This document shows positions 1 to 57,231 of a DNA stretch of 64,000 nucleotides, in pieces (position 1 is the stretch's first letter; the number at the start of each line of letters is the position of its first letter). Origin of the DNA: Escherichia phage vB_EcoM_VR20. Location: the sequence record NC_028894.1; one strand, written 5' to 3'. A model generated the notes under the pieces. It worked only from the letters and a program-made list of their open reading frames with translations, was not told the origin of the DNA and searched no databases. The translations under genes were made by a program, and so were the position numbers.

Positions 1-798
1 GTTAATAAATGGAATGCTCCTGTTAAATCCCGTAAATTGAAAACTGCATTAACTGTTGAGCTTGCTCAGGATATGGAAGCAAATGGCTTTAATGCTCCTG
101 CGTTCCTGGAAGACCTGCTTGCTACTATTATGGCAGATGAAATTAACAAGGATGTTCTTCAGTCTCTTATTACCGTTTCCAAGCGTTATAAAGTAACTGG
201 CGTTTCTGACAATGGCACCATCGATTTAACATATGATGCAGCTCCAGAAGGTGCACGTAAACTGTACGAACTGGTTTGCGAAATGAACTCCGAAATTCAG
301 AAAACTACATCTTATTCCGGTACCTTTGTTGTTGCCTCCAGCCGTGTTGCTGCTATGTTGGCTGGTTCTGGCTGGCTGAAGCATAAACCTGAAGACGAAC
401 AGTGGCTTCCTGAAACAGCGTACGGTTATTTGATTAATGGTCTTCCTGTATTCTGTGATGTTAACAGTCCATTGGATTATGTAACCGTTGGCGTTAAAGA
501 AAATTACGGTGGAAACGAAGTCGTAGGCTCAATCTTCTATGCTCCTTATACCGAAGGCCTGGACTTAGATGATGAAGAACACGTAGGTGCGTTTAAGGTC
601 ATTGTGGACCCAGACAGCTTGCAGCCATCTATCTCCCTGATGGTTCGATATGCGCTTTCAGCTAACCCTTACACCGTTGCTAAAGACGACAAAGAAGCTC
701 GTATTATCGATGCAACTAATATGGATTTAATGGCCGGCCAGAGCAATATGTCTTATCTGCTCGGTGTTAAACTTCCGCCAATCATTTATGAGGCGTAA
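1..798 (+). CDS. 23: Major capsid protein gp23, C-terminal part (5' end lies outside the window)
   Basis: Frame 1 is open from base 1; paralogous to the downstream gp24 ORF; recalled gp23 C-terminal similarity and position upstream of gene 24. Confidence 0.85.
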   Translation, partial: VNKWNAPVKSRKLKTALTVELAQDMEANGFNAPAFLEDLLATIMADEINKDVLQSLITVSKRYKVTGVSDNGTIDLTYDAAPEGARKLYELVCEMNSEIQKTTSYSGTFVVASSRVAAMLAGSGWLKHKPEDEQWLPETAYGYLINGLPVFCDVNSPLDYVTVGVKENYGGNEVVGSIFYAPYTEGLDLDDEEHVGAFKVIVDPDSLQPSISLMVRYALSANPYTVAKDDKEARIIDATNMDLMAGQSNMSYLLGVKLPPIIYEA

Positions 799-2082
799 AT
801 GCAAAAGATTAACGCACTAATTCACGAATCAACATTAACGGCGGCCAACCAGGTCGCCCGTCCTAATTTGCTTTCTTATACTCAGGCCACGAATAAACGA
901 ATTTTTAAAGCACTCGTGGCCGAACAGAAAACTACTCAGCCAGTTGCAGCGTTGTATGGTGTTCGTGTTCTGAACCCAGATGATAAAATGACATATCTTG
1001 GTGGAGCAACGTTTGCGGGTCAAATTGGTATGTTCGAGCGTAAGAATATTCCAGAATTTACAAACAAAGACGAAGCTTATGCAGTCGGCGATATGTTCCA
1101 GTTTGAAAGTGTTGTGTTCAAAGTTTTGGAAGCATCACCATTCGCCGGGACTCTTGAAACTGATTTGGGTGAAGTTATTTCTGAAGCCATTGCTGCTGGC
1201 CATATAAGAATGATGTCGGATGCGGCTTTCACTGATAAATTTGAACAAGGTCATCCTGAAATTGCTGAAGCCGGTTTCCGTATTGATAAATGGCAGACCG
1301 AAGTCAAATCCAGAAAGCTGAAAACTTCTTTAACGGTCGAGCTTGCACAGGACCTGGAAGCAAACGGTTTCGATGCAACAGACTTCATTGATAATATTCT
1401 CGGTATTCAGATGGCAGAGGAAATTAATAAGGATGTACTGCAATCCCTTATTACTGTCAGTTCTCGCTTCAAGGTGCAAGGTGTTTCTGAAAAAGGTGTA
1501 TTGAATCTAACTGACCCGAAATATGATAACGCTCAGGACCGTGCGCGAACCCTGTATTATTATATGTGTGAAATGAACTCCGCAGTTCAACGTCAGACTT
1601 CGTTTGCTGGTACATATGCAGTCGCTTCTTCCCGGTGTGCAGCTATTTTAGCAGCTTCTGGTTGGGTTGAGAAAAAGGAAGACCAGGATGAATTAGCCTA
1701 TGGCGTTCTGAAGAACGGTTTACCACTTTATGCAGATATGAATAGTCCATGTGATTATGTTATTGTTGGTGTAAATGCTGATATGGGTGAAGGTCAGACG
1801 GTCGCATCTTTGTATTATGCGCCTTATACGGAAGGACTTAGTGAAGTTGATGATGAGGGTGATACCTCGGTCGGGGAATTCAAGGTTATTGTTGACCCTG
1901 AAAGCTTGCAGCCTACTGTTGCGCTATTAGCTCGTTATGCATTGACAGCGAACCCTTATACGGTTGCGAAAGATGATAAAGAAGCTCGCATTATTGATGG
2001 TGCTGATATGGATAAGATGGCCAACCAAAGCCAATTGAGTTCTTATCTTGGTGTTAAACTTCCACCACTGGAAAAAGAATAA
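799..2082 (+). CDS. 24: Capsid vertex protein gp24
   Basis: 427 aa, same length as T4 gp24; ATG start; gp23-like fold paralog; followed by hairpin terminator. Confidence 0.88.
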   Translation: MQKINALIHESTLTAANQVARPNLLSYTQATNKRIFKALVAEQKTTQPVAALYGVRVLNPDDKMTYLGGATFAGQIGMFERKNIPEFTNKDEAYAVGDMFQFESVVFKVLEASPFAGTLETDLGEVISEAIAAGHIRMMSDAAFTDKFEQGHPEIAEAGFRIDKWQTEVKSRKLKTSLTVELAQDLEANGFDATDFIDNILGIQMAEEINKDVLQSLITVSSRFKVQGVSEKGVLNLTDPKYDNAQDRARTLYYYMCEMNSAVQRQTSFAGTYAVASSRCAAILAASGWVEKKEDQDELAYGVLKNGLPLYADMNSPCDYVIVGVNADMGEGQTVASLYYAPYTEGLSEVDDEGDTSVGEFKVIVDPESLQPTVALLARYALTANPYTVAKDDKEARIIDGADMDKMANQSQLSSYLGVKLPPLEKE

Positions 2083-2102
2083 GGGCCTTGCGGCCCTTTT
2101 TT
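2083..2102 (+). terminator. Hairpin gggcc-ttgc-ggccc plus T-run after gene 24
   Basis: GC stem followed by TTTTTT seen directly; between convergent genes 24 and rnlB. Confidence 0.6.
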
Positions 2103-3108
2103 ATTCACTAATTAATGCAATCCAAACATGTCTTAATGTTTCTCTTACATTTGCGATGAGTTGCTTTTTAACTTCAACAGGATTTTCCGTCAGAGTCAAT
2201 TCAAGGCCTTCGCGACCGGCTTCTTCCAGAATATCTTGGACCGTTAGCCCCATTACCTTTCCAAAATCCTTCGGTGATACTTCACCAATCTTACTGATAA
2301 CATTATTGATGCGGTTAACAGTCACATAATCAGTGAAATTCCACAGTAAATCCATATCATTTTGGCTCAGAACCACTGCAGCCTTAATAGGCTTATCAGA
2401 CTTTTTCTTTTCACTGAATTTAGAGTTCTTACATTTAATCGCTACGCGCTCGCCGTTAGGTAACCATGCAGGAACATCAGGTTTTAATACAAATCCTTCA
2501 GCAGTGAATACTTTACCTTCCACCTTTGCATCAAAATCAGTGGTATTTGCTGTAGTCAAACCCGCGTTATCCACTGTAAAATTGTAATCAGGGACAACAG
2601 AATCCAGGTCATTAGGGAGCTTAATTAATTCTTCAAAACTACCTGTAGCCAGGCGCGGCGCAACCTTAAACTTATGGATAATACAGAATGCTTCCATAAG
2701 GGTGTCAGTCAGGACAGATTCAGTCCCATCTTCTTTAGTAACGCGGATATCAAATACATAAAAATCTTTATCACCGTAATCCACATTCTTCTGGATACCT
2801 GCCCCGGCAAACTCACCATAAATCTGGTATGCCTGGTAATTAATATCCTGCAAAAGTTTCTGCACAGATTTAATAGAATCTGCATAGTTCTTTAATACAA
2901 TTTCATAACCATAGAAATCTTCTGCAGGCAGGATAGGTCCAGTGCGTTTCGCACATGTCACATTGTCTTGTTCAATGATTAATGAAAAGTTGGTACCATG
3001 AATCTTCTCGCGAGCTACCCATTCACCGCTGGTGAAGCCTTGCAGGCGAATCTTTTCAATGAACTTGTTGTTATAGTGATTTTCAAGGCTGTTGTATTTC
3101 TTAAACAT
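2101..3108 (-). CDS. rnlB: RNA ligase 2
   Basis: 335 aa; N-terminus [14 protein letters not shown] with the ligase lysine motif, matching recalled T4 Rnl2. Confidence 0.85.
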
Positions 3109-3207
3109 AATCTCTCACTTTTGATGTTATAAATATCATTATAAATTAGACCCACTATACTTTCTTTCTCTGAAAGGAATTAATAGTCACAAAGGGGTCT
3201 AGAACCA

Positions 3208-3232
3208 TTATACCACAATTTTATTTTAAGCA
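3208..3232 (-). promoter_or_regulatory. MotA-type middle promoter upstream of rnlB (TGCTTAA box, about 13 bp, TATAAT)
   Basis: Minus strand reads TGCTTAAAATAAAATTGTGGTATAAT; shares the motif ggtctagaaccattata with the uvsY promoter. Confidence 0.45.
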
Positions 3233-3238
3233 AAAAGG

Positions 3239-3502
3239 TCAGAATTTTACATACAATGTTGGTTTGCCTTCTTGCCAATCATAATTCCAGGTAAATGATG
3301 TAAATTTTTCTGCTCGCAGAAATTCAGATATCTTTGCGCGGTTTCCTTCTTCATACTCTTTTTCAGAAACTGCCATATTAACAAAATCTTTGCCATTTTG
3401 AGCAGCGGCAACTGCCACTTTACGGAATATAGCAATAAAATCATTTGCAACTTTATCTTGTGACTCTTTTGCGATTTGACGTAGTTCTTCTGCAAATGTC
3501 AT
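3239..3502 (-). CDS. Hypothetical protein (T4 24.2 position)
   Basis: 87 aa, ATG start with AAAGGTGA Shine-Dalgarno. Confidence 0.55.
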   Translation of the reverse strand: MTFAEELRQIAKESQDKVANDFIAIFRKVAVAAAQNGKDFVNMAVSEKEYEEGNRAKISEFLRAEKFTSFTWNYDWQEGKPTLYVKF

Positions 3503-3702
3503 TTCTTCACCTTTTTGTTATTCAAACGTTTACGATAAACAATCTTTTCTTTTGCTTTAAATTTAGCTTTGGCCTGTTCTACATCAACCCAGGCCTTTGC
3601 CATTTCTTTAGCAGTCCCGCCTAATACCTTGGCGATTTCAATAAATGTCATACCAGATTCATGCAGAAAATGTACTTTAACCTTATCCATAATGATTCTC
3701 AT
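3499..3702 (-). CDS. Small hypothetical protein with helix-turn-helix-like segment (T4 24.3 position)
   Basis: 67 aa; segment MTFIEIAKVLGGTAKEMAK resembles an HTH; start may be the internal ATG at 3690. Confidence 0.5.
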   Translation of the reverse strand: MRIIMDKVKVHFLHESGMTFIEIAKVLGGTAKEMAKAWVDVEQAKAKFKAKEKIVYRKRLNNKKVKK

Positions 3703-3786
3703 GTTGAGTTAGTGAAGCTATCTTAACATGGAATTTTTAACTTGTAAACAGGGTTTTTATGCCAGGCAACGTTTGTACAGTACCAT

Positions 3787-3811
3787 AAAAACAAAGGGAC
3801 CCGAAGGTCCC
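3787..3811 (-). terminator. UUCG-tetraloop hairpin terminator downstream of hoc
   Basis: gggacc-cgaa-ggtccc with flanking A and T runs. Confidence 0.55.
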
Positions 3812-3818
3812 TTTTTAA

Positions 3819-4952
3819 TTAATAAACGTAATCGTATATAATACCAGCTTCTAAAGCGGTGCGATGAATAATTCGACCATTACGAGATTCTTGTACATCA
3901 ACCTCTGGATAGTCGGTAATCATTTTTTGAAGGGTATATCGGTGCAAATAATACGGGCTATCTGGAGCATCAGTTTTCCAGTCTTGCCCAGCAAGAGTCA
4001 TTTTCTGAATTTCGTCCATAACCCACCAACCACACCAGATATAAGCTGAATTACGAACTGGCAGCGGATGAACGTAAGGTAGTTCACCCTCTGGTTCAGG
4101 TGCGACTTTAGCGGTGACTGTTACATTACCAGTTTTTGTTACCGTCACTGGGTTATAATCAGTCGCCGAAACCACAACAGAAACTTCAATAACCTGTGAA
4201 CCTTCGGCGCTTGTATCGATTACCAGAGTATCCGTGGTGCCATCTACAGGAGAACCATCTTTCTTCCAAGAATAAGCAAAAGTAGCTCCACTCGGCGCGC
4301 CGACTACATCCGCTTTAAAAGAAGCTGGAGTACCTTCAGAGACAGTAATAGAAGCAGGCGTTAAAGTAACAGAAACACCCGACATAGTTTTCTTAACAAA
4401 CGTTACCTCAGCTCCTTTAGTTGCGGTGCCATTATTATAATCGGGTGCAGAAACAGTAACTTCGCAGTTCAATGTATAATTTGCTTCTGCTGATTCGGTA
4501 ACAGTAATAGTTTCACCAGTTTGACCTGGGATTACGCTAGTGTTACGTTTCCAAACATAAGCAATTGTTGCACCAGAAGGAGCACCTGTCACGTTAGCAG
4601 TAACAACTTGAGATTGCCCTATTTCTTTAGTAACAGAGGCCGGGTCTAAAGTCAGCGTGATTGCCGGCATTGTTTTATTCTGGATAGTTAAAGTTGTTTC
4701 AGCTTCAGCAGTTTCCGGTTCCCCGTCTGCCGGAGTGGTGGTTGCAACAACTTTAATAGTCTTACTGCCTGCTGGACCAACAGCGACATAATCCATTGCA
4801 GCAGTCACAGAAGATTGAGGAACGCCATCAACGGTCCAGACAAATGATTCGGTACCTTCAGCTGCAGCGCCAGCGCCGGTTGCAGTGAAATTGGTTGTTG
4901 CTCCAATAACGGCCGTAGCCGCCAAAGGAGCAATAGTTACGGTATAAGCCAT
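3819..4952 (-). CDS. hoc: Hoc, highly immunogenic outer capsid protein
   Basis: 377 aa (T4 Hoc 376); repeated Ig-like T/V/S-rich segments; conserved C-terminal capsid-binding region. Confidence 0.8.
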   Translation of the reverse strand: MAYTVTIAPLAATAVIGATTNFTATGAGAAAEGTESFVWTVDGVPQSSVTAAMDYVAVGPAGSKTIKVVATTTPADGEPETAEAETTLTIQNKTMPAITLTLDPASVTKEIGQSQVVTANVTGAPSGATIAYVWKRNTSVIPGQTGETITVTESAEANYTLNCEVTVSAPDYNNGTATKGAEVTFVKKTMSGVSVTLTPASITVSEGTPASFKADVVGAPSGATFAYSWKKDGSPVDGTTDTLVIDTSAEGSQVIEVSVVVSATDYNPVTVTKTGNVTVTAKVAPEPEGELPYVHPLPVRNSAYIWCGWWVMDEIQKMTLAGQDWKTDAPDSPYYLHRYTLQKMITDYPEVDVQESRNGRIIHRTALEAGIIYDYVY

Positions 4953-4961
4953 AATAAACCC

Positions 4962-5627
4962 TTATTTTAAAGTGACAAAAGATGAGTTACGAGTTTCTCG
5001 TACTAGAACAGACCCATTACGATTAATGTAATAAATCAAACTGAATAGAGTTTGGTGCGCGGTGGGATGTGGGAAAGCAGTTGGACGTTCTTTCCAATCT
5101 GGAGTCTCGGCAATCCACTGATAAATCCACCATGGAACAGTACAGAATCCAGGGTTCTTACCAATAAGCATAAGATTTGGGCTAAAGTTTTTTGGCAGAG
5201 CAAATACAGGTTTTTCAGATTCGATAACCTTAGCAACAGCTGCTTCGAACTTTTCTTCGACAAACGGAACGTCCTCTTCGACCACAACAACTGGTTCTTC
5301 GATTTCAACAACTTCAACCTTTGCTTCGGTTGGAGCATCAAATAAGAGCTTAGCTTCTTCTTTAGCTGACTCATCGCCATCAAATTTAGCACCTGACAAT
5401 TCATCATCGGCATCGATAAGGTCAGTGATGCTCAAGCCTTCATTATCATCAGGCATAGGCATGTCAGCAAATGCTTTAAGTCCTGCTTCCAGGTCAGCCA
5501 ACATATTATCAAAGGTTTTTGTTTTCTTAACATCAACACCAAGTGATGCTGCATATTCGGCTAATTTTTCTTTGGCTTCTTTTTTCTCGAGGACACGAAT
5601 TTCCTCAATGTAGTTCTTGTCAATCAT
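4962..5627 (-). CDS. inh: Putative Inh, inhibitor of prohead protease
   Basis: 221 aa acidic protein between hoc and uvsW as in T4; ATG with GAGG Shine-Dalgarno. Confidence 0.55.
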   Translation of the reverse strand: MIDKNYIEEIRVLEKKEAKEKLAEYAASLGVDVKKTKTFDNMLADLEAGLKAFADMPMPDDNEGLSITDLIDADDELSGAKFDGDESAKEEAKLLFDAPTEAKVEVVEIEEPVVVVEEDVPFVEEKFEAAVAKVIESEKPVFALPKNFSPNLMLIGKNPGFCTVPWWIYQWIAETPDWKERPTAFPHPTAHQTLFSLIYYINRNGSVLVRETRNSSFVTLK

Positions 5628-5645
5628 GATGAACCTCGGTTAGTG

Positions 5646-5653
5646 TATAAATA
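5646..5653 (+). promoter_or_regulatory. T4-type late promoter TATAAATA upstream of uvsW
   Basis: Exact TATAAATA about 30 bp upstream of the uvsW ATG. Confidence 0.55.
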
Positions 5654-5681
5654 TAGATATATTTATTACCTTGGAATCATC

Positions 5682-7181
5682 ATGGATATTAAAATCAACT
5701 TTCTAAATTTTAGTCACGTGCATGTTGAATGTGAAGATGGAATCTTCTACGAACTCCGTGATTACTTCAGCTTCGAAGCTGAAAACTATCGCTTCAATCC
5801 AAAGTTCAAGCAGGGAGTTTGGGACGGACGAATCCGCCTCCTGGATTACAATCGTAAATTACCATACGGTTTGGTTAATCAAATTAAAAAGTTCGCTGAC
5901 CAGTTTGGTTATTCATTCTGGATTGACCCGCAAATCACCGAGAAAGAAGAAATCTCTCGCGAAGAATTCGACAAATGGGTCGAGTCAAAAGAAATCTATT
6001 CAGGCAATACCAAGATAACGCCCCATTGGTATCAATCTGACGCCGTATATGATGGTCTGGTCAACAGAAGAAAGATTCTGAACTTACCTACGTCTGCGGG
6101 TAAAAGCCTCATCCAGGCGCTTCTGGCGCGATATTATCTCGAGAACTATGAAGGCAAGGTTCTTATCCTTGTTCCTACAACTGCCCTTGTCGACCAGATG
6201 ATTAATGACTTTGTTGATTATCGGCTTTTCCCTCGTGCAGCTTGTCTGGGTATTCGTTCCGGGACTAAACGCGATTCTGATGCGATGATTTATGTATCGA
6301 CTTATCAGACGGCTGTAAAACAACCTAAAGAATGGTTTGAACAGTTTGGCCAGTTTATGAATGACGAATGCCACATGGCTACAGGTAAATCGATTTCGAC
6401 GGTTATCGAAGGCCTTACGAATTGCATGTTTAAATTTGGTTTGTCAGGTTCACTCCGTGATGGCAAAGCCAACCTTATGCAATATATGGGTCTGTTTGGT
6501 GATATCTTTAAACCAGTATCAACATCTAAATTAATGGAAGATGGCCAGGTTACTGACCTTAAAATAAATAGTATTTTCCTTCGTTACCCTGACGAATTCA
6601 CCGTTAAAATGAAAGGTAAAACTTATCAGGATGAAATCAAGGTAATTACAAAAGCTACACGCAGAAATAAATGGGTAACAAACCTTGCACTCAAGCTTTC
6701 TAAAAAAGATGAAAACGTCTTTTTGATGTTTAAGAATATCGAGCATGGTAAATCGATGTTTGAAATGATTAAAGAAGCTGGTCATGAGAAAGTGTATTAT
6801 GTTTCCGGGGAAGTTGATACCGAAACCCGTAATGCTCTGAAGGTCATGGCAGAGAATGGAAAGGGAATTATTGTTGTAGCTTCATATGGTGTATTCTCAA
6901 CGGGGATTTCCGTTAAAAACCTCCATCATATTATTTTCGCTCACCCGGTCAAGTCAAAGGTAATTGTACTCCAGACAATTGGCCGCGTGCTTCGAAAACA
7001 TGAATCCAAATCGACCGCAAACGTGTGGGACATTGTGGATGATATGGGGGTCAAACCCAAATCAGCAAACGCTAAAAAGAAATATGTTCATATTAACTTT
7101 GCGCTTAAACATGCACTAGAACGTATTCAGCGGTATGCAGACGAAAAATTCAATTATGTAATTAAACAGGTGGAAATATAA
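5682..7181 (+). CDS. uvsW: UvsW RNA-DNA and DNA-DNA helicase
   Basis: Starts MDIKINF..; Walker A TSAGKS; strong recalled identity to T4 UvsW. Track start at 5643 is a GTG. Confidence 0.9.
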   Translation: MDIKINFLNFSHVHVECEDGIFYELRDYFSFEAENYRFNPKFKQGVWDGRIRLLDYNRKLPYGLVNQIKKFADQFGYSFWIDPQITEKEEISREEFDKWVESKEIYSGNTKITPHWYQSDAVYDGLVNRRKILNLPTSAGKSLIQALLARYYLENYEGKVLILVPTTALVDQMINDFVDYRLFPRAACLGIRSGTKRDSDAMIYVSTYQTAVKQPKEWFEQFGQFMNDECHMATGKSISTVIEGLTNCMFKFGLSGSLRDGKANLMQYMGLFGDIFKPVSTSKLMEDGQVTDLKINSIFLRYPDEFTVKMKGKTYQDEIKVITKATRRNKWVTNLALKLSKKDENVFLMFKNIEHGKSMFEMIKEAGHEKVYYVSGEVDTETRNALKVMAENGKGIIVVASYGVFSTGISVKNLHHIIFAHPVKSKVIVLQTIGRVLRKHESKSTANVWDIVDDMGVKPKSANAKKKYVHINFALKHALERIQRYADEKFNYVIKQVEI

Positions 7182-7408
7182 TGAAATCCTTCGAAGAAAT
7201 TATGTACGAAGCATCAATTGAAGGCTTTATGGCTAAGATTGGTTCCTGTCAGACCATGGACGGTCTGAAGGAGTTGGAAGGCTATTATAAGAAACGCAGC
7301 AAAGAAGCTGAACTGAAAGATTCCGATGATATCAGTGTTCGCGATGCTCTTGCCGGTAAACGCGCCGAGCTTGAGGATATGGACGACGAAGAAGACGAAG
7401 ATTTCTAA
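7181..7408 (+). CDS. uvsW.1: UvsW.1
   Basis: 75 aa acidic protein overlapping the uvsW stop, as in T4. Confidence 0.7.
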   Translation: MKSFEEIMYEASIEGFMAKIGSCQTMDGLKELEGYYKKRSKEAELKDSDDISVRDALAGKRAELEDMDDEEDEDF

Positions 7409-7410
7409 AT

Positions 7411-7438
7411 AAAAAGGCCCCAACCAAAAGGAAGGGGC
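7411..7438 (-). terminator. Hairpin plus T-run downstream of the uvsY operon
   Basis: ggcccc..ggggc stem followed on the minus strand by TTTTTATTT. Confidence 0.45.
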
Positions 7439-7465
7439 AAAACCAAAAATGGTTAACAACACTAG

Positions 7466-7633
7466 CTAAATTAAAAGTTGGGTCTCGTTCAGTTGCTCTT
7501 CTGTATTTTCCGTAACTGGCAAACTCTGAACATAATTATAACAGGCGCCCGGATGCACCGGACCTTGGTCTGTATCCACAACCAATGCAGAATCGATTGG
7601 AGTTTTACAGACAACACAAATCTTATCTGACAT
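7466..7633 (-). CDS. Small protein with CxxC..C spacing (T4 uvsY.-2 position)
   Basis: 55 aa, MSDKICVVCKTPID..; below the track length cutoff; ATG with GAGGAGAC Shine-Dalgarno. Confidence 0.5.
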   Translation of the reverse strand: MSDKICVVCKTPIDSALVVDTDQGPVHPGACYNYVQSLPVTENTEEQLNETQLLI

Positions 7634-7661
7634 GATTGTCTCCTCAGTTAAACTTACATAT

Positions 7662-7778
7662 CTATTTAGTGCTCTTCATAATAGCAGCACGAGCTTTCAT
7701 CTCGTTAACAATTTCAGTTATTCGGTTTGCAGAGATAACCATCTCGTCGAGAATCTTACTAATATTCTGTTTCATCAT
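7662..7778 (-). CDS. Small protein (T4 uvsY.-1 position)
   Basis: 38 aa, MMKQNISKILDEMV..; ATG overlaps the uvsY stop (ATGA coupling). Confidence 0.5.
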   Translation of the reverse strand: MMKQNISKILDEMVISANRITEIVNEMKARAAIMKSTK

Positions 7779-8209
7779 TTACCTGCCTCGAATTGTCTTA
7801 TTTCTAACATATGTTTAAGTGCGAAACTTCGTGACTTAACACCATCTAATGCAGCGCTACAGAAGTCCTGGAGCAGTGCCCAATACTGAATTGAAGTATC
7901 AATCTTCAACACGCTTGAATCTGCGGCCATGACTGTTTTCAATTCTGACTTCTCGTATACATCCATGCATACTTCTTCCCCTGGGTCACCCCTTCCCGTA
8001 TAATGGTCTAGTCGTTTTTTCAGTGCAGTTTTCTTCTGAATCTCAAGACGCATTATTTCTTTCTTGCAGTTGGTATACAATCTCAACCATTTGCTATGCA
8101 ACAAAACGTTGTTTTGTGTTTCATATTGAAGTTGTGTACCATCAATTTTTAAATCTGCATCTAACTCGTCCTGAAATACTTCTAACTTATATTCAATCTC
8201 TTTTTTCAT
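7775..8209 (-). CDS. uvsY: UvsY recombination mediator
   Basis: Recalled T4 UvsY identity (QLQYE..HSKWL, C-terminal IRQFEAGK); internal ATG gives 144 aa. Confidence 0.85.
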   Translation of the reverse strand: MKKEIEYKLEVFQDELDADLKIDGTQLQYETQNNVLLHSKWLRLYTNCKKEIMRLEIQKKTALKKRLDHYTGRGDPGEEVCMDVYEKSELKTVMAADSSVLKIDTSIQYWALLQDFCSAALDGVKSRSFALKHMLEIRQFEAGK

Positions 8210-8237
8210 AATGTATCCAATGTAAGGGTCTAGAACC

Positions 8238-8262
8238 ATTATACAGCCATAAAATTAAAGCA
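8238..8262 (-). promoter_or_regulatory. MotA-type middle promoter of uvsY; candidate oriF-like origin element
   Basis: Minus strand GCTTTA box, 12 bp, TATAAT; T4 oriF coincides with the uvsY middle promoter. Confidence 0.45.
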
Positions 8263-8652
8263 TTAACCGTTTTGACTTAGCTGAATCCTGATTTGTTCGA
8301 GGGTATCAGGGTCATCAACAATGCTGAACTGAACCGTTACGATAATGGAGTTATCATCATACATAGGGACAACTGCAACCTGTAGATTGCTTATCCTTGG
8401 TTCGAAGTTCCGCACCGCGGAGACGATGTTGCGTTTAATGGTATCTGTGATTAATGGAGTGATATTCTCAAAAAGCTGATTACTTATATCACATCCAAAT
8501 TCAGGCATAAAAGGCCTTGACCCTTTTCTTGTGGTGATTATTCCCAGAAGACTGTTCTTAACAGACCTTGCACCGGTTACTTTAGCAACGTCTTTATCCC
8601 AACTCATTGACAAGTCAGGAGACACATCGCTATACATTTTGTTTATATTCAT
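8263..8652 (-). CDS. 25: Baseplate wedge subunit gp25
   Basis: 129 aa; recalled T4 gp25 identity (LLGIITTRKGSRPF.PEFGCD). Confidence 0.9.
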   Translation of the reverse strand: MNINKMYSDVSPDLSMSWDKDVAKVTGARSVKNSLLGIITTRKGSRPFMPEFGCDISNQLFENITPLITDTIKRNIVSAVRNFEPRISNLQVAVVPMYDDNSIIVTVQFSIVDDPDTLEQIRIQLSQNG

Positions 8653-9276
8653 TTACATAAACTTAAAGAATTCTTTAAGCCCCTTAATTACATGGACAGA
8701 ATGCGCTCCACACTCGCAAGAGATAGGAATAGCCATTTGGACCTGTGGCTTGAGAAGTTCTTCCGTTAGTGCATTTATATCATCGAGGGTAATTGCATTG
8801 TACAGGTCCTCGATTTCGGCTTCATTTAAGTCATCAACAACGATGCGCTCACCGCCTTCCGTGATAATATATTCGATACAACAAGCAATCATTTTTCCTT
8901 TATCGCCATCTTCAAACAGTCCCGGATAACGGAATTTAATTTTAAACGCCCCGAAATCACGAATAACCTCAGACTCATCCACGATGCTTGCACGACTTAT
9001 AGTCACAGGAATATCTTGTTCCTTTCCACACTCGCATACCCATGTATGCTCGACGTTAACAGCTCCGAGACTATTTGCCCAGAGATTAATAAGAAGCAGT
9101 TCAGCTTCCTGTTTGTTTAACCCTTTAGCATCAGTGCATTTATTAAGCAGTTCAATTATTGCGGGTTCCATACGCTTTTCTAATTTTGCCTGAAGCAAAT
9201 CTTTGTATTCGCGCAAGGTAAAAGCCCTACAATTTATAGTTTTATTTTTAATTTGGACAATAAATTCATAAGTCAT
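8653..9276 (-). CDS. 26: Baseplate hub subunit gp26
   Basis: Internal ATG with AGGAGCA Shine-Dalgarno gives 207 aa (T4 208); gene order 26-25. Confidence 0.75.
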   Translation of the reverse strand: MTYEFIVQIKNKTINCRAFTLREYKDLLQAKLEKRMEPAIIELLNKCTDAKGLNKQEAELLLINLWANSLGAVNVEHTWVCECGKEQDIPVTISRASIVDESEVIRDFGAFKIKFRYPGLFEDGDKGKMIACCIEYIITEGGERIVVDDLNEAEIEDLYNAITLDDINALTEELLKPQVQMAIPISCECGAHSVHVIKGLKEFFKFM

Positions 9277-9293
9277 AATTTGCTCCTTTACTG

Positions 9294-9305
9294 TATTTAT
9301 AAATA
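9294..9305. promoter_or_regulatory. Divergent late promoter tatttataaata serving 26 (minus) and 51 (plus)
   Basis: Palindromic sequence contains TATAAATA on both strands between divergent late genes. Confidence 0.55.
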
Positions 9306-9329
9306 TCAATAAAGATAAAAGGGGATTCT

Positions 9330-10082
9330 ATGGCCAATATCGTAAGATGTGAAATGCCAGACGGAGTTCATCGTTTCAAACCGTTTACAGTCGCTGATTA
9401 CCGTGATTTACTGCTTGTGCGGAATGACATGAACAACAAACCCGTCGAAGAACAAAAACAATTATTAGACGAACTGTTGGAAGATTATTTTGGAGAGTAT
9501 CCGAAAGCATGGAGACCTTACATATTCCTGAAGGTATTCACTTCCTCTATCGGTAAGACAAAAGTCCCGGTAGCGTTCGAATGTCAAAAATGTAAAAAAA
9601 CAAAGCAGACTTTGTTTAACATGAGTCAAGGTCCATTGATAAATCCAACGATGGAAACTGCAGGGATAAAAATACAATTTAAGTTCCCTGAAATGGAATA
9701 TAAAGATAAGTCGGAGCTTGTTCTAAACACCATCCAGACTGTCGAAGACTCAGAACAAAAGTACAATTGGGAAGACCTTCCTGAAGAAACGAAGATGCAG
9801 GTTATTGATGCCATTGATATAGAGAGTCTCGAAGAGCTCCTTAAGAAAATGCATTCAGTTTATATTCCATTTACATATGGTTGCTGCGAAAAACACAAAA
9901 CCGAATATACAGACTTGATTGATGTCTTTAAGCTTATCCTTAACCCGGATGAAGTCTTTGTATTTTATCAAATTAACCACTTGCTGGTAAAGAACCAATA
10001 TACGCTCGATAGCATCATGCACATGATTCCCATCGAACGAGGTATTGCTTTATCGTTAGTTGAGAAGGACTTGAAAAAATGA
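9330..10082 (+). CDS. 51: Baseplate hub assembly catalyst gp51
   Basis: 250 aa (T4 249); position and order. Confidence 0.75.
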
Positions 10083-22281: not shown

Positions 22282-22650
22282 TTATGCGACTTTAATCCAA
22301 TTATCTAAATTTAATTCACCCTTAGCTTTCATTTTTTCAATCAAATCATCAGCAGTGGTGCGACCATTTTGATACCATGTAACATCTTCAGAATAACCAG
22401 TTTCTTCATCTTCATAGGTCTTACAACGAATCTTACCAAGAATCAAAGTTTTCAGTTCGTAGGTATCACCAGTAAAAAAGTTTGTTACCATAATTTTCCA
22501 GGAGAAGTCATCAGAAGGACCTTCTGGAGTCATGCAAGAAACGAATTCAAATTGTTCTTTATACAAGTGCCATTGCATTTCTTTAGTTTCAATGGCTTTG
22601 TAGCCGTCGTGGTCTTTACCTTTGATGTATGAGTTAAGATTGATTTTCAT
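22282..22650 (-). CDS. Hypothetical protein
   Basis: 122 aa; ATG preceded by the conserved leader repeat. Confidence 0.55.
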   Translation of the reverse strand: MKINLNSYIKGKDHDGYKAIETKEMQWHLYKEQFEFVSCMTPEGPSDDFSWKIMVTNFFTGDTYELKTLILGKIRCKTYEDEETGYSEDVTWYQNGRTTADDLIEKMKAKGELNLDNWIKVA

Positions 22651-22734
22651 TTTATTCTCCAGTGTTTTATTGTGTAACTCAGTATGGAATCATTATGCAC
22701 TGGACCAACCCTGTTGTAAACCTTTTATGGAAAT
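22651..22734 (-). promoter_or_regulatory. Early promoter plus conserved leader repeat
   Basis: TTTACA-17-CATAAT, then leader TCCATACTGAGTTACAC..CACTGGAGAATAAAATG shared with 38309, 57450 and 61474. Confidence 0.5.
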
Positions 22735-22758
22735 AAAAAAGGGACTCCGAAGAGTCCC
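22735..22758 (-). terminator. UUCG hairpin terminator
   Basis: A-run then gggactc-cgaa-gagtccc directly after the stop of the 53-aa ORF. Confidence 0.55.
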
Positions 22759-26622: not shown

Positions 26623-26636
26623 AGGACCTAGACCCC

Positions 26637-26660
26637 ATTATAACATAAAATTTTTAAAGC
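26637..26660 (-). promoter_or_regulatory. MotA-type middle promoter (GCTTTA box, 12 bp, TATAAT)
   Basis: GCTTTAAAAATTTTATG is nearly identical to the element upstream of rnh. Confidence 0.45.
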
Positions 26661-26661
26661 G

Positions 26662-28775: not shown

Positions 28776-28840
28776 TCCTCAAATATTTTATAATCCGTGG
28801 GAGCATTATACTCTGCTCCCATGAGTTTGTACACTACTTT
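28776..28840 (-). promoter_or_regulatory. Early promoter with stem-loop (PeSL-like)
   Basis: TGTACA-17-TATAAT; stem gggagca/tgctccc encloses the -10. Confidence 0.45.
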
Positions 28841-39826: not shown

Positions 39827-39832
39827 CTTATA

Positions 39833-43061: not shown

Positions 43062-46000
43062 ATGGCCGATATTTTAAAACCAGCATTCAGAGCAACATCC
43101 GGTCTCGATGCTGCTGGTGAGAAAGTCATTAATGTCGCGAAAGCTGATTACTCAGTTTTGTCAGACGGCGTTAACGTAGATTTCTTTATAGAAGAAAACA
43201 CAGTTCAACAATATGATGCAACGCGCGGATACAAAAAGAACTTCGCAGTTATTAATGATAACCGTATTTGGGTTGCTCAGCGTGATATTGATGCTCCAGC
43301 AGGAGCATTTACCCCTCAGTATTGGTTAGCAACCCGTACTGACCCTAAATGGGAAACTGTTGCATCTCCAACTCGTCAGCTTAATTCAGGTGAATTTATC
43401 GCAGTCGACTCAGCTGCAAGCTTTACCACATTTACATTGCCTCCGAACCCGACTGATGGTGATACCATCGTTATTAAAGATATCGGCGGCAATACTGGTT
43501 ATAATGAAATCAAAGTTCAATCGAGCAACGTGCCTGGTCAAGGTAACCAAAAAATTGTTCGTTTTGGTAATCAGTATTCAGAAGTTTTAATTACCAAACC
43601 GTTCTCTTATAATATGCTTATTTTCTCCAACCGCCTTTGGCAGTTCTGGGAAGCAGGTAACGAAGAACGCGGAATAAGAATTGAACCAAGCTCTGGTAAA
43701 TATCGAACTCAAGCATCAGATTTTATTATGCGTCATTATACGACTGCAGAAAAAATTACATTTGTTCTTCCTAAGTATGCTAACCAAGGTGATATTGTCA
43801 AATCGGTAGACATAGATGGATTAGGGCCATTATATCACCTGGATGTTGAAACGTTTGACGAGTCAAGCTCTCTGGGTAAACAGGGCCAACACAGTATGGA
43901 ATTCCGTACAACTGGTGATGGCTTCTTCGTGTATAACGCAGTTGAAAAACTGTGGGTAACCTGGGACGGTGATAACAAAACTCGTTTGCGTGTAATTCGT
44001 GACAATGTAAAATTGTTACCAAACGAAAGTATCATCGTGTTCGGTAATGATAACAACACCTCGCAGACAATTAACATTGACCTTCCAACAGGTGTTCGTC
44101 AGGGTGATGTTGTTAAGATTGCTCTGAACTATCTCCGCAAGGCACAGACGGTTAATATTAGAGCTTCGGCTACTGATAAAATTGCATCTTCTGTTCAGTT
44201 GCTTCAGTTCCCGAAACGTTCGGAATATCCGCCGGACACTGAATGGGTATTTGTTGACTCTTTGACTTTCAATGGTAATATAAGTTATACTCCGGTTATT
44301 GAATTAAGTTACATGGAAGATACGGTTAATAACATTAACTACTGGGTTGTTGCTCAGAACGTTCCGACTATTGAGCGTGTTGACTCGAAGGATGATTTGA
44401 CCCGTGCTCGTCTGGGTGTTATTGCATTAGCTAACCAGGCTCAGGCTAACGTTGACCATGAAAATAACCCTGAAAAAGAATTAGCAATTACCCCGCAGAC
44501 TTTGGCTAACCGTGTGGCTACTGAATCACGTCGTGGTATTGCACGAATTGCTAACACTGCCCAGGTGAACCAGGATACGACTTTTGCTTTCCAGGACGAC
44601 ATCATCATCTCTCCGAAAAAGTTAAACGAACGTACAGCTACAGAAACACGTCGTGGTGTCGCAGAAATCGCCACACAACAAGAAACTGATGCAGGCACTG
44701 ATGATACTACCATCATCACTCCACGCAAGCTACAAGCTCGTCAGGGCTCAGAAAGCCTATCTGGTATCGTTAAGTATGTTCCTACTACCGGGACTACTCC
44801 AGCGACTTCTAGAGCAACTATAGGTACTAACGTTTATAATAAAAATACAACTACTCTGGTAATTTCTCCGAAAGCTTTGGACCAATATAAAGCTGACCAG
44901 AACAACCAAGGTGCTGTATATCTGGCTACTCAGTCAGAAGTTAACGCGGGGGCAACAAATACAGGATTCAGTAACTCGGCAGTGACTCCTGAAACATTAG
45001 GTGCCCGCAGAGCAACAGATTCAAACCATGGTTTAATCGAGATTGCAACTCAAGCAGAAGTTAATACAGGAACCGATTATACCAGAGCTGTGACTCCTAA
45101 AACGTTGAATGACCGTAAAGCAACAGAATCATTATCCGGCATAGCCGAGATTGCTACGCAATCAGAATTTGATAGTGGTACTGATGATACTCGTATTGCA
45201 ACGCCATTAAAAATTAAAACTAGACTGAATGATACTGCTCGTACTTCTGTTATTGCAGCAAGTGGTTTAGTAGAAACAGGGACGCTCTGGGACCATTATA
45301 CGCTGAATATTCTTGAAGCAAATGAGACTCAACGTGGCACCGCAAGACTGGCTACTCAACTTGAAGTTAATACTGGTACTGACGATAAAACAATCGTTAC
45401 TCCGCTTAAGTTGATGTCGAAAAAAGCCACAGAAGGCACCGAAGGTATTGTTCGCATCGCTACTCGTGCAGAAACTATCGCAGGAACAAGTTCAATCCTG
45501 GCTGTTTCTCCGGTTAGTCTGAAATGGATTGCACAGTCCGAACCAACATGGGCAGCAACCACGACGACCCGCGGCTTTGCTAAGATGTCTGAAGGCGCAA
45601 TTACTTTTGTCGGTAATGCAACTGCAGGTTCGACCCAGGCTCTTGACCTGTACGAGAAAAATAGCTATGCTATCTCTCCGTATGAGTTAAACAAAACCCT
45701 TGGTAACTTCCTGCCGCGTTTGGCTAAAGCAGCAGACTCGGATAAACTGGATAACCTGGATAGCACGCAGTTCATTCGTCGTGATATTGACCAAATCGTT
45801 GAAGGTACATTAACCCTTAGAAAGAACATAAGAGTTGATGGTCAGCTGGCGACTGGTGGTACCGGTGAATTTGGCGGCTCGTTGGCGGCTAACTCCACAT
45901 TTACTATACGCAACACAGGAACTCCGACCCGTATCGTTTTCGAAAAAGGTCCTGCCTCCGGTGCAAACCCGGTTCAGTCAATGAGCATCCGTGTATGGGG

Positions 46001-53656: not shown

Positions 53657-54310
53657 ATGGAACCAAAAGTAGGAATCTCAATACCCGACCTACTTTTTGG
53701 ACTTCTTGATAGAATTTTTAAAGATAATGCAACCGGGAAAGTTGTCTTTTCCCGGGTACTAGTTATTGTTCTATTATTTTTAATGGCGGTAATCTGGTAT
53801 AAAGGTGATGCAATTTTAGATGCGTATAGGGATGCTTCATATGCCTCGTACACAGAAATGATAAGGCAAGACCAGGATAACAGATTTAAAATTGCAGCTA
53901 TCGAGCAAATCCAGATAGTTCACTCATCAAGCGGAGCAGACTTTACAGCGATATATTCCTTTAGACCAACTAACCTTAACTACTTCGTGGATATGGTGGG
54001 GTACGAGGGGATATTACCTGAATCAGTTGACGAAAAAAATTTGGGTGGGTTTCCAATAGATAAGACTTCAGCGGAATATTTGGCGGGGGTTAATGGTAAT
54101 TATTTTGAATCCGGCACGGAATCTGTATTCTTACCAACAAAGAAAAAAAGCAGCTTCGAATATATGTTCAGCTGCCCATTCTTTAATTTGGAAAACGTTT
54201 ACGCAGGCACAGTCTCGTTGTACTGGTATAAGCAAAAACCCGACCTTAGTTTTGATAGGCTTTCTGCTATGTGTGGGCAAGCAGGTCGTACGCTCGGGCG
54301 TACACGTTAG
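53657..54310 (+). CDS. t: Holin T
   Basis: 217 aa (T4 218); single N-terminal transmembrane helix; LFG.LDR.FKDNATGKV matches recalled T4 T. Confidence 0.88.
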   Translation: MEPKVGISIPDLLFGLLDRIFKDNATGKVVFSRVLVIVLLFLMAVIWYKGDAILDAYRDASYASYTEMIRQDQDNRFKIAAIEQIQIVHSSSGADFTAIYSFRPTNLNYFVDMVGYEGILPESVDEKNLGGFPIDKTSAEYLAGVNGNYFESGTESVFLPTKKKSSFEYMFSCPFFNLENVYAGTVSLYWYKQKPDLSFDRLSAMCGQAGRTLGRTR

Positions 54311-54582
54311 AATCCGGAGGTATACATCATCAGATATCGGTGTATATCTTCGAATCCTTCGTTAAATTGTTCAATGATTTGTTCAATTTCATCTTCAGAT
54401 AAACTTTTAAACAACTTGTTAAACGATACATTGTTTAACTCATTACCATTCTCATTCCTTAATCCCAACTCATTCAAAAACGCGATAAACACATCACGCT
54501 TCATCGTAATATCTTCCCGGTCGGTTTTAATCAAAATAGATGTAACGGTAACAATTTCAGAAACGATTTCAAATTTAGTCAT
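54307..54582 (-). CDS. asiA: Anti-sigma-70 protein AsiA
   Basis: 91 aa (T4 90); ..VTSILIK..REDI....FIAFLNE.G and FNEGFE..HRYL.MYT match recalled T4 AsiA. Confidence 0.82.
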   Translation of the reverse strand: MTKFEIVSEIVTVTSILIKTDREDITMKRDVFIAFLNELGLRNENGNELNNVSFNKLFKSLSEDEIEQIIEQFNEGFEDIHRYLMMYTSGF

Positions 54583-56622: not shown

Positions 56623-57231
56623 TCACTTTAAGATGTTAATAACATGTTGAATGTTTTCAGTTGACATAACGTTGTCAATGTAGGTATTCAATCCACCCAC
56701 TTTAACGCTAAATCCCACGTCTGTAAACTGTTTTACTATCTTTTGTTCAGTATTATACGCATGCACGCGAATCTGACCATCACGACGAACATCAATCTGT
56801 TTTAATGTCTTGACACGCTTGAACTTCACAATCAGATTGCTGCGGTCTTCTGAAATGCTCTTAAAGTCAATACCAATAGACAACAATTGCTCTTTGATAT
56901 ATTCTGCAGTCGCTTCCATTTCATCAGTCACACCGCGTTTTGTTCTTGTCTTCTTCACTTCCAGAAGGTCGGGATTATTTTCATTCGCCCAAAGTTCAGC
57001 TGCATCCAGAATAAGGTCAACACCTTTTTCTGTAACCATCAAACCATCACCAGAAGCTTCAACATAGTTGTTATTCAACAATGTCTGTACGCTATCAATT
57101 GATGTGTTCTGCTGGTCTAAAACAACCTCTGGACTCACAAAGTTGTTTTTGTATACAAACACCAGAGCATTGACATCAGTCTCATGCAGCGCGTTCTGGG
57201 AGCATTTAACGATATAATTTAACTTGTTCAC
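56623..57231 (-). CDS. motA: Middle transcription activator MotA
   Basis: 202 aa (T4 211); matches recalled T4 MotA (..ASGDGL..TEKG.DLI..AAELWA.EN.P.LL). Confidence 0.85.
   Translation of the reverse strand: MNKLNYIVKCSQNALHETDVNALVFVYKNNFVSPEVVLDQQNTSIDSVQTLLNNNYVEASGDGLMVTEKGVDLILDAAELWANENNPDLLEVKKTRTKRGVTDEMEATAEYIKEQLLSIGIDFKSISEDRSNLIVKFKRVKTLKQIDVRRDGQIRVHAYNTEQKIVKQFTDVGFSVKVGGLNTYIDNVMSTENIQHVINILK

What the first reader, a model, noticed from the sequence alone, without database searches (positions are those of the whole stretch)
3195..3213. Shared motif ggtctagaaccattata at the rnlB and uvsY promoters
The same 17 to 18 bp, spanning the -10 and a palindromic TCTAGA-containing sequence, occurs at 3195..3213 and 8226..8243. 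Both are followed by a MotA box at the same spacing. A related version (cctagaccccattata) is at 26627..26642. The palindrome downstream of the -10 could be a protein-binding site.
Basis: seen in the sequence. Interest (0 to 1): 0.35.

Follow-up and report, generated by a model that had tools for sequence, protein, structure and literature searches.

The report
Shared core of two phage middle promoters
The repeated 19-base sequence is the working centre (the -10 box, the start site and the first few transcribed bases) of two ordinary MotA-dependent "middle" promoters of a T4-like phage. They belong to a small family of near-identical promoter cassettes scattered through such genomes, and the repeat is probably not a binding site for a separate protein.

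Summary
GGGTCTAGAACCATTATAC occurs exactly at 3195-3213 and 8226-8244, and a related copy lies at 26627-26642. On the coding (-) strand it reads GTATAATGGTTCTAGACCC. That is a perfect -10 box, a G-rich discriminator, a predicted start at the A of TCTAG, and five further transcribed bases. A MotA box lies 13, 12 and 12 bp upstream at the three sites. The window is a Gaprivervirus (VR7/VR26 group) and encodes MotA and AsiA.

The motif marks a subfamily of middle promoters. In the VR26 genome, all six matches to TATAATGG(N1-2)TCTA have a MotA box. T4, JS98 and CC31 have the same family with lineage-specific sequence after the start site. Members include PuvsY (T4 oriF), PnrdC.7, and antisense promoters absent from the published T4 list. 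The oriG promoter resembles them only loosely.

Copies within one genome resemble each other more than orthologues between genera do, so they evolve in concert. The TCTAGA palindrome is not conserved outside Gaprivervirus, so an operator is unlikely. Early promoters in the window form even larger homogenised cassettes. I read the repeat as a homogenised promoter cassette. Interest is modest.

The parts
3195..3213 (-). Copy 1 of the exact 19-mer (minus strand GTATAATGGTTCTAGACCC). It contains the -10 box TATAAT (3207-3212), the discriminator GGTTCT (3201-3206), the predicted start A at 3200 and transcribed bases +2 to +6, for the rnlB promoter.
   Evidence: The start site is inferred from mapped T4 starts, which fall on the 7th nt after TATAAT.
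3226..3232 (-). MotA box TGCTTAA of the rnlB promoter, 13 nt upstream of the -10 box.
8226..8244 (-). Copy 2 of the exact 19-mer: the -10 box (8238-8243), discriminator, predicted start A at 8231 and +2 to +6 of the uvsY promoter. It is the positional homologue of T4 PuvsY, the primer promoter of oriF.
8256..8262 (-). MotA box TGCTTTA of the uvsY promoter, 12 nt upstream of the -10 box.
26627..26642 (-). Related family member TATAATGGGGTCTAGG(TCC): the -10 box at 26637-26642, a discriminator one nt longer, and a predicted start at 26629/26630. It lies upstream of a Cd.3 homologue (26311-26589).
26655..26661 (-). MotA-box variant CGCTTTA of the cd.3 promoter, 12 nt upstream of the -10 box.
45283..45320 (-). 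Weaker relative: TGCTTCA, 13 nt, then TATAATGGTCCCAGAGCG. It lies inside gene 34 (43062-46961, + strand) in antisense orientation. It is the positional homologue of T4 P34i, the primer promoter of oriG.
56623..57231 (-). motA gene, encoding the activator that reads the MotA boxes.
   Evidence: Pfam MotA_activ 6e-12 and MotCF 5e-9.
54307..54582 (-). asiA gene, encoding the anti-sigma co-activator needed for middle promoters.
   Evidence: Pfam AsiA 8e-21.

Best explanation
The repeat is the core of two MotA/AsiA-dependent middle promoters, read on the minus strand.

How the promoters work. MotA binds the TGCTT(A/T)A box at about -30. Sigma-70, remodelled by AsiA, binds the perfect TATAAT. The GG just downstream of the hexamer is the kind of G-rich discriminator that sigma region 1.2 favours. 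Transcription starts at the A of TCT|AGACCC. The mRNAs for rnlB and uvsY therefore both begin 5'-AGACCC. The start site and the MotA dependence are inferred by homology to mapped T4 promoters; they were not measured here.

Why the two copies are identical. They belong to a dispersed family of roughly 50-bp promoter cassettes (MotA box, -10 box, discriminator, start, and about 6-13 transcribed nt). The cassettes are kept alike within a genome, most likely by duplication and short-patch gene conversion between copies, on top of selection for a strong core (TATAATGGnTCTAnG). This parallels the homogenised early-promoter cassettes of these phages. The TCTAGA palindrome is a lineage-specific by-product of the start-site sequence CTA plus what follows, not an operator.
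For: Promoter anatomy at all three sites. The sigma-70 consensus scan called no -35/-10 promoter at sites 1 and 2. MotA and AsiA are encoded in the window.

T4 PuvsY, PnrdC.7 and P34i have mapped starts exactly 7 nt after TATAAT (Hinton 2010, PMC2988021, Table 1; sequences extracted).

Family membership:
- VR26 genome: 6 of 6 matches to TATAATGG(N1-2)TCTA have a GCTT box at -30. A 13-base pattern of this kind would be expected far less than once by chance in about 340 kb of two-strand sequence (my estimate, not a tool result). The exact 17-mer also sits at a third promoter, in the gene 3 / gene 2 gap.
- The same family exists in T4, JS98-like phages and CC31.

Similarity between paralogues is confined to about -28 to +25 relative to the first T of the -10 box.

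Paralogues within a genome beat orthologues between genera. The window's rnlB and uvsY match at 13 of 14 positions after TATAAT; T4 modA-antisense and uvsY at 13/14; the CC31 uvsY and gene3/gene2 cores share an identical 18-mer. uvsY orthologues between genera match at 7-8 of 14.

Homogenised cassettes are general in this genome. Larger families of terminator plus early promoter plus leader repeats are present, and the discriminator consensus of early promoters is lineage-specific as well (VR26 GATTCC|A, T4 ACAACT|A). This matches the published PeSL/PmSL concept (PMC2839356; PMC4122927).

The leaders show no RNA structure beyond what shuffled sequences give.
Against: No transcript ends or MotA dependence were measured for this phage.

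The identity block is sharply bounded (about -13 to +6), while the adjacent spacer between the MotA box and the -10 box is not homogenised. Simple gene-conversion tracts would not obviously respect that boundary. This hints at direct selection on the start-proximal bases.

PuvsY and the gene3/gene2 antisense promoter share a lineage-specific core in T4, Gaprivervirus and CC31 and more weakly in JS98, but less clearly in a fifth group (loci L149 and L174). Co-variation of these cores could also reflect a shared, lineage-specific recognition event.

Only 3-4 of the 58 mapped T4 middle promoters carry the motif, so it is not required for MotA activation as such.
Confidence: 0.75

Rival explanations
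1. The start-proximal block (-6 to about +8) is recognised by a lineage-specific factor acting on the DNA or on the 5' end of the RNA, and the factor co-evolves with it. One version of this idea is that the block marks promoters whose transcripts are used as R-loop primers for replication origins, or as regulatory antisense RNAs.
For: Site 2 is the positional homologue of T4 oriF, and the 3-mismatch copy at 45283-45301 is the positional homologue of T4 oriG.

Both T4 origin promoters fall in the minority TATAATG class, about 7 of 58 by my count.

PuvsY and an unlisted antisense promoter between genes 3 and 2 carry lineage-specific, nearly identical cores in T4, Gaprivervirus and CC31 and more weakly in JS98, while their spacers differ.

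Against: The same review says R-loop formation at oriF does not depend on specific sequences, and that no local motif is shared by all the origins.

Other family members sit 3-6 kb from the annotated oriA, oriC and oriE, which is not coincident with them.

oriG matches the family only loosely, and it lies inside a coding sequence.

Early promoters, which have no origin role, show the same lineage-specific homogenisation.

No candidate factor was identified.
Confidence: 0.13
2. The palindrome GG(G/T)TCTAGA(A/C)CC is an operator for a dimeric DNA-binding repressor or activator.
For: Core TCTAGA is a perfect 6-bp palindrome, and 5 of 6 pairs are symmetric over 12 bp. CTAG is otherwise strongly avoided in this genome. 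The site overlaps the start, a classic position for a repressor.
Against: Symmetry is absent from homologous promoters in T4 (GAATCTAAGTCC), JS98 (GGTCCTATGG) and CC31 (GGTTTTGAGTTC) and from other family members in the close relative VR26 (TCTAAGGTC, TCTGACC).

The conserved positions form an asymmetric pattern.

T-even cytosines carry bulky glucosyl-hydroxymethyl groups that hinder major-groove readout, an argument used for MotA itself in PMC2988021.
Confidence: 0.06
3. The shared bases encode a common RNA element in the 5' leaders, such as a protective 5' hairpin or a translational control structure.
For: In the rnlB leader the 5' AGACCC can pair with GGGUCU about 45 nt downstream. That predicted stem is retained in ECML-359. 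VR26 has ACCUUC/GAGGGU at the same place.
Against: The fold energies are no better than those of shuffled sequences (z = -0.5 to +0.2). The uvsY and cd.3 leaders form no comparable stem. The identical block starts upstream of the start site, so half of it is never transcribed.
Confidence: 0.04
4. Chance resemblance of two promoters that both happen to have a perfect -10 box.
For: Six of the 19 bases are the TATAAT consensus, which many middle promoters share.
Against: Thirteen further bases are identical. With about 22 candidate promoters in the window, I estimate the chance of any pair sharing the 11 nt after TATAAT at roughly 1e-4. The shuffles agree. The same block also recurs at a third promoter in VR26 and in family form across several genera.
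Confidence: 0.01

Closest known systems
Bacteriophage T4 MotA/AsiA-dependent middle promoters, in particular PuvsY, PnrdC.7 and PnrdD+ (Hinton 2010, PMC2988021)
   Same: A MotA box at -30, a near-perfect sigma-70 -10 box 12 +/- 1 bp downstream, and a start on an A 7 nt after the hexamer. Site 2 occupies the same gene 25 / uvsY gap as T4 PuvsY. T4 PnrdC.7 reads TATAATGGTTCTAAGCCC, which matches 16 of the 18 bases of the window motif.
   Different: The published consensus ends at the -10 box, and I found no description of a conserved discriminator and start block in the papers I could read. Most of the 58 mapped T4 promoters have A/T-rich discriminators. In T4 the rnlB promoter lies inside gene 24.2 and is not of this type, and T4 has no promoter gap upstream of cd.3.
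PeSL / PmSL mobile promoter cassettes of T4-type phages (Arbiol 2010, PMC2839356; Comeau 2014, PMC4122927)
   Same: Short promoter-containing repeats dispersed through the genome and more alike within a genome than between relatives. A middle-promoter version (PmSL: TGCTT box plus -10 box) was reported for Vibrio phage nt-1. The window carries clear PeSL-like early cassettes.
   Different: PeSL and PmSL are defined with a stem-loop terminator just upstream of the promoter. No terminator-like hairpin adjoins sites 1-3. In this family the conserved part extends downstream of the -10 box into the transcript rather than upstream.
T4 R-loop replication origins oriF (uvsY) and oriG (gene 34) (Kreuzer and Brister 2010, PMC3016281)
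   Same: Site 2 and the weak copy at 45283-45320 are the positional homologues of the two origin promoters. Both are MotA-dependent promoters with TATAATG.
   Different: Those origins are defined by a promoter plus a downstream A+T-rich unwinding element and by function. No sequence-specific element near the start is known to be required. Sites 1 and 3 have no known origin counterpart.
Optimal discriminator and start-site elements of E. coli sigma-70 promoters: the G-rich discriminator read by sigma region 1.2, and the pyrimidine(-1)/purine(+1) start. This comparison rests on established knowledge and was not tested here.
   Same: G at -6 and -5, T at -1, A at +1; G at +2 in the Gaprivervirus copies.
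   Different: These elements do not explain conservation or identity at +3 to +6, nor the lineage-specific variants.

Membership tests
T4-type MotA/AsiA-dependent middle promoter | MotA box (a/t)(a/t)(a/t)TGCTT(t/c)A centred near -30 | tested here: met
   TGCTTAA (3226-3232), TGCTTTA (8256-8262) and the variant CGCTTTA (26655-26661).
T4-type MotA/AsiA-dependent middle promoter | Excellent sigma-70 -10 box (TAtaaT) 12 +/- 1 bp downstream of the MotA box | tested here: met
   TATAAT at all three sites, with spacers of 13, 12 and 12 nt.
T4-type MotA/AsiA-dependent middle promoter | No canonical -35 element | tested here: met
   The sigma-70 consensus scan finds no -35/-10 pair at sites 1 and 2. 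Site 3 has only a weak TTAACG.
T4-type MotA/AsiA-dependent middle promoter | The phage encodes MotA and AsiA | tested here: met
   Pfam MotA_activ plus MotCF at 56623-57231, and AsiA at 54307-54582.
T4-type MotA/AsiA-dependent middle promoter | MotA- and AsiA-dependent transcript starting about 7 nt after the -10 box | not testable with these tools
   Inferred only from the mapped T4 starts of PuvsY (115371), PnrdC.7 (53325) and P34i (153011).
PeSL/PmSL promoter-terminator cassette | Promoter sequence repeated at dispersed loci of one genome | tested here: met
PeSL/PmSL promoter-terminator cassette | Stem-loop (terminator) immediately upstream of the promoter as part of the repeat | tested here: not met
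   No terminator-like hairpins within the three intergenic regions. Similarity between paralogues starts at the MotA box.
PeSL/PmSL promoter-terminator cassette | Association with insertion/deletion differences between related genomes | tested here: inconclusive
   The rnlB cassette sits in a gap of about 130 bp that is only 9 bp in T4, and the cd.3 cassette sits in a gap of about 70 bp that is 2 bp in T4. The uvsY gap is conserved in all genera examined.
T4 R-loop origin (oriF/oriG type) | Middle promoter at the position of a mapped T4 origin | tested here: met
   Met for site 2 (oriF) and for 45283-45320 (oriG). Not met for sites 1 and 3.
T4 R-loop origin (oriF/oriG type) | Downstream DNA unwinding element, persistent R-loop, and autonomous replication | not testable with these tools
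   These are functional criteria. The unwinding element has no sequence definition (PMC3016281).
Palindromic operator | Dyad symmetry conserved among homologous sites | tested here: not met
   5 of 6 pairs are symmetric in the window, but symmetry is lost in T4, JS98, CC31 and other VR26 members.

The most novel reading that the evidence does not exclude
The conserved block around the start site defines a functionally distinct subclass of MotA promoters. Their transcripts would be used for something other than, or in addition to, mRNA: R-loop primers for replication origins (PuvsY/oriF, and loosely P34i/oriG) and conserved antisense RNAs. Examples of the antisense members are the unlisted promoters reading into modA and into genes 2/4 in T4, VR26, JS98 and CC31. 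On this reading the block co-varies between loci within each lineage because a phage-specific factor or process reads it.
Probability: 0.12. Interest if true: 0.6.

Novelty: new member of a known kind. Interest (0 to 1): 0.3.

Why it matters
As it stands, the finding documents two ordinary middle promoters.

Three wider points may interest people who work on T4 transcription and replication:
1. A subfamily of middle promoters has a conserved discriminator and start block (TATAATGGnTCTAnG). The published consensus does not include it.
2. These cores evolve in concert within genomes. The uvsY (oriF) promoter and an antisense promoter between genes 3 and 2 share a lineage-specific core in T4, Gaprivervirus and CC31, and more weakly in JS98.
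3. T4 itself carries consensus-quality antisense middle promoters that are absent from the table of 58 mapped ones.

All three are cheap to test with existing T4 dRNA-seq data and in vitro MotA/AsiA transcription.

Tried and rejected
- A scan of IMG/VR for the degenerate pattern GCTT-N13-15-TATAATG-N2-3-TCTA returned mostly unrelated contigs, probably chance matches. It could not be used for family statistics.
- Searching full text for the motif sequences found nothing.
- The T4 genome review (PMC150520) and the two Brister origin-mapping papers are not held, so origin coordinates come only from the RefSeq annotation and the Kreuzer and Brister review.
- The T4 dRNA-seq start-site table of bioRxiv 10.1101/2024.04.04.588121 is not among the supplements held, so the predicted antisense starts could not be checked.
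- GenBank and RefSeq T4 records carry no promoter features.
- An RNA-structure explanation was rejected after folding the leaders.
- An inverted MotA box at the start (TAAGC is the reverse complement of GCTTA) was considered, because T4 PnrdC.7 and the VR26 gene-18 antisense member contain it. It was dropped because the window copies and most other members do not.
- Coincidence of family members with oriA, oriC and oriE was considered. The members lie 3-6 kb away from those origins, which is not convincing with about 6 members in 169 kb.

Full report
**What the window is.** Region 2000-10000 is 97% identical to Escherichia phage P896 and 94-96% identical to other phages of the VR7/VR26 group (genus Gaprivervirus, Tevenvirinae). 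Around the finding the genes lie on the minus strand: rnlB 2101-3108, 24.2 3239-3502, uvsY 7775-8209, gene 25 8263-8652, and a Cd.3 homologue 26311-26589. Pfam confirms UvsY and RNA ligase 2.

**The observation.**
- GGGTCTAGAACCATTATAC occurs exactly at 3195-3213 and 8226-8244, with mismatches on both flanks.
- With up to 3 mismatches the 17-mer has 4 matches against 0.12 expected, and none of 100 shuffles reached 4.
- The related copy at 26627-26642 is present.
- All three sites lie in short intergenic gaps directly upstream of minus-strand genes.

**Anatomy on the coding strand.**
- rnlB: TGCTTAA, 13 nt, TATAAT GGTTCT A GACCC.
- uvsY: TGCTTTA, 12 nt, TATAAT GGTTCT A GACCC.
- cd.3: CGCTTTA, 12 nt, TATAAT GGGGTCT A GGTCC.

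This is the architecture of T4 middle promoters: a MotA box at -30 and a sigma-70 -10 box 12 +/- 1 bp downstream (PMC2988021). The sigma-70 consensus scan called no -35/-10 promoter at sites 1 and 2. The window encodes MotA (56623-57231) and AsiA (54307-54582).

The published table of mapped T4 middle promoters places the starts of PuvsY (115371), PnrdC.7 (53325) and P34i (153011) on the A seven nt after TATAAT. By homology the starts here are 3200, 8231 and 26629/30. The 19-mer therefore covers -13 to +6: the -10 box, the discriminator, the start and five transcribed bases. This step is inferred, not measured.

**It is a family, not a pair.** I assembled the complete genome of the annotated close relative VR26.
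- TATAATGG(N1-2)TCTA occurs six times, and every copy has a GCTT box at the right distance.
- Three are sense promoters: rnlB, uvsY and cd.3.
- Three are oriented against the flanking genes: the srd/modA gap, the gene 3 / gene 2 gap (with the exact 17-mer TATAATGGTTCTAGACC), and the gene 18 / 19.1 gap.
- A seventh member (TATAATGGTTCTGACC) precedes nrdC.6.

T4 itself has the family with a different downstream sequence:
- PuvsY: TATAATGAATCTAAGTCC.
- The same 18-mer in the srd/modA gap, antisense.
- TATAATGGGTCTAAGTCC in the gene 3 / gene 2 gap, antisense.
- PnrdC.7: TATAATGGTTCTAAGCCC.
- PnrdD+: TATAATGAATCTGACACC.
- Loosely, P34i: TATAATGGTCCCAGAGAG.

The two antisense T4 promoters have consensus MotA boxes, yet they are absent from the table of 58 identified promoters. 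Only 3-4 of those 58 carry the motif, and most have A/T-rich discriminators. The motif therefore marks a subfamily and is not a general requirement for MotA activation.

**Other genera.**
- JS98-like phages: uvsY TATAATGGTCCTATGGT; gene3/gene2 antisense TATAATGGTCCTAGGTC; and TATAATGGGTCTAGGTCC directly upstream of rnlB.
- CC31: uvsY and gene3/gene2 antisense share the identical 18-mer TATAATGGTTTTGAGTTC.
- uvsY promoters from several further lineages, found through the protein and not through the motif, keep TATAATGG.T(C/T)(T/C) followed by a purine.
- Over 26 members, TATAATG is invariant. G at -5 occurs in 23/26, T at -3 in 23/26, C at -2 in 20/26, T at -1 in 24/26, A at +1 in 21/26 and G at +3 in 20/26. 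Positions +4 to +9 are pyrimidine-rich but lineage-specific. Part of this set was picked using the motif, so those figures are inflated for some positions.

**Concerted evolution.**
- Similarity between paralogues is limited to about -28 to +25 from the first T of the -10 box.
- Over the 14 nt after TATAAT, the window's rnlB and uvsY and VR26's gene3/gene2 promoter match at 12-13 positions, and T4 modA-antisense and uvsY at 13.
- uvsY orthologues between genera match at only 7-8.
- The PuvsY and gene3/gene2-antisense pair is close within T4 (16/18) and Gaprivervirus (17/18) and identical in CC31 (18/18). It is weaker in JS98 (14/18) and less clear in a fifth group (L149/L174).
- The spacers between the MotA box and the -10 box are not homogenised.

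**Why I favour the cassette reading.** The same window holds much larger dispersed repeat families made of terminator hairpin, early promoter and leader on the minus strand. Examples are 22648-22756, 38306-38400, 39753-39825, 57447-57563 and 61468-61545, which share CATAATGATTCCATACTGAGTTAC. These look like the PeSL elements described for T4-type phages (PMC2839356, PMC4122927). The second of those papers also reports middle-promoter versions (PmSL) in phage nt-1.

The discriminator consensus of early-like promoters is itself lineage-specific (VR26 GATTCC|A, T4 ACAACT|A), with only C at -2, a pyrimidine at -1 and A at +1 in common. Homogenised promoter cores are thus a genome-wide habit of these phages. 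The 19-mer is one instance of it. Unlike PeSL and PmSL, sites 1-3 have no adjoining stem-loop, so I do not file them as members of that class.

**The palindrome.** GGg-TCTAGA-aCC is symmetric in 5 of 6 pairs. Symmetry is lost in T4, JS98 and CC31 and in other VR26 members, and the conserved pattern is asymmetric. An operator for a dimeric protein is therefore unlikely. CTAG is 6-fold depleted in the window, so its presence at three starts is notable. It is explained well enough by the conserved C-T-A start followed by a G in this lineage.

**RNA structure.** The leaders fold no better than shuffled sequences. Only the rnlB leader has a predicted 5' stem: AGACCC/GGGUCU in the window and in ECML-359, and ACCUUC/GAGGGU in VR26. 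That is suggestive, but it rests on three sequences.

**Replication origins.** Site 2 is the positional homologue of the T4 oriF primer promoter. The weak copy inside gene 34 (45283-45320, antisense to 43062-46961) is the homologue of P34i/oriG.

The review PMC3016281 states that the origins share no local motif, that oriF and oriG have little homology beyond a middle promoter and an unwinding element, and that R-loop formation is not sequence-specific. Other family members lie 3-6 kb from the annotated oriA, oriC and oriE. I keep an origin or primer role as the most novel reading that is not excluded (probability about 0.12), not as the explanation.

**Verdict.** The feature is the homogenised core of two MotA-dependent middle promoters that belong to a dispersed cassette family. 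That makes it a new member of a known kind, of modest interest (0.3).

Noticed in passing
window 1-64000 (whole window); VR26 genome, loci L006-L009: GATC is completely absent from the 64-kb window (0 observed, 232 expected). It is nearly absent from the VR26 genome (4 observed, 619 expected), whereas T4 has 191 (548 expected). CTAG is also about 6-fold depleted (38 vs 232). The VR26 annotation shows no dam gene in the gene 56 / gene 61 interval where T4 has one. This looks like strong avoidance of a GATC-specific restriction or repair activity.
   Followed up: partly
window 22648-22756, 28797-28840, 38306-38400, 39032-39075, 39753-39835, 57447-57563, 59923-59966, 61468-61545 (minus strand): Large dispersed repeat families (up to about 80 nt). 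Several copies combine a G+C-rich terminator hairpin, an early-type promoter (GTGTACA, spacer, (T/C)ATAAT) and a conserved leader (GATTCCATACTGAGTTAC ... GGAGAA ... ATG). They look like the PeSL cassettes described for T4-type phages.
   Followed up: partly
T4 NC_000866 plus strand, -10 boxes at 11885-11890 and 75988-75993 (loci L010, L011); VR26 plus strand 11690 and 71891, minus strand 98028: Consensus-quality MotA-type promoters oriented antisense to the flanking genes: reading into modA/modB, into genes 2/4 and, in VR26, into gene 18. They are conserved in T4, VR26, JS98-like phages and CC31. The two T4 promoters (reading into modA and into genes 2/4) are absent from the published table of 58 mapped T4 middle promoters. 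They could be a source of the classical 'anti-late' RNA.
   Followed up: partly
VR26 97950-98040 minus strand (locus L007, about 47950-48040): The gene-18 antisense family promoter is followed at about +50 by the hairpin GGGGActttcaTCCCC and a T-rich tail. This would give a roughly 70-nt transcript. Its first 55 nt are about 70% identical to the leader of the gene3/gene2 antisense promoter (..CAATAACAC..ATAATAGAT..).
   Followed up: no
loci L142-L154 (gene 3 / gene 2 gap of VR26, JS98-like and related phages): An inverted repeat brackets the antisense promoter core. In VR26 it is CAGTGTTAT ... ATAACACTG. In JS98-like phages versus a related group it is cccAg(a/c)cag ... ctggcTggg versus cccGgacag ... 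ctggcCggg, which looks like a compensatory change. On the sense (late) mRNA this would form a hairpin between genes 2 and 3.
   Followed up: no
window 7995-8011 (plus strand, inside the uvsY coding sequence): TATAATGGTCTAGTCG: a 13-base match to the family core, antisense within uvsY and about 230 bp from the uvsY promoter, but with no MotA box upstream. It overlaps codons for the conserved LD(H/Y)YTGRG segment, so it may be a coincidence of coding.
   Followed up: no
window 3106-3200 (minus strand, rnlB leader): The 5' end AGACCC can pair with GGGUCU at 3149-3154. That predicted stem is retained in ECML-359. VR26 differs over the 12 nt that follow the motif and is predicted to form a corresponding ACCUUC/GAGGGU stem. 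A second TATAAT lies at 3138-3143. The whole intergenic segment of about 130 bp is missing in T4, where 24.2 and rnlB are 9 bp apart.
   Followed up: partly
window 583-780 and 1870-2067: A 198-nt direct repeat at 73% identity. It reflects two tandem paralogues of the capsid vertex gene 24, annotated as vertex protein I and II in VR26; T4 has a single gene 24.
   Followed up: no
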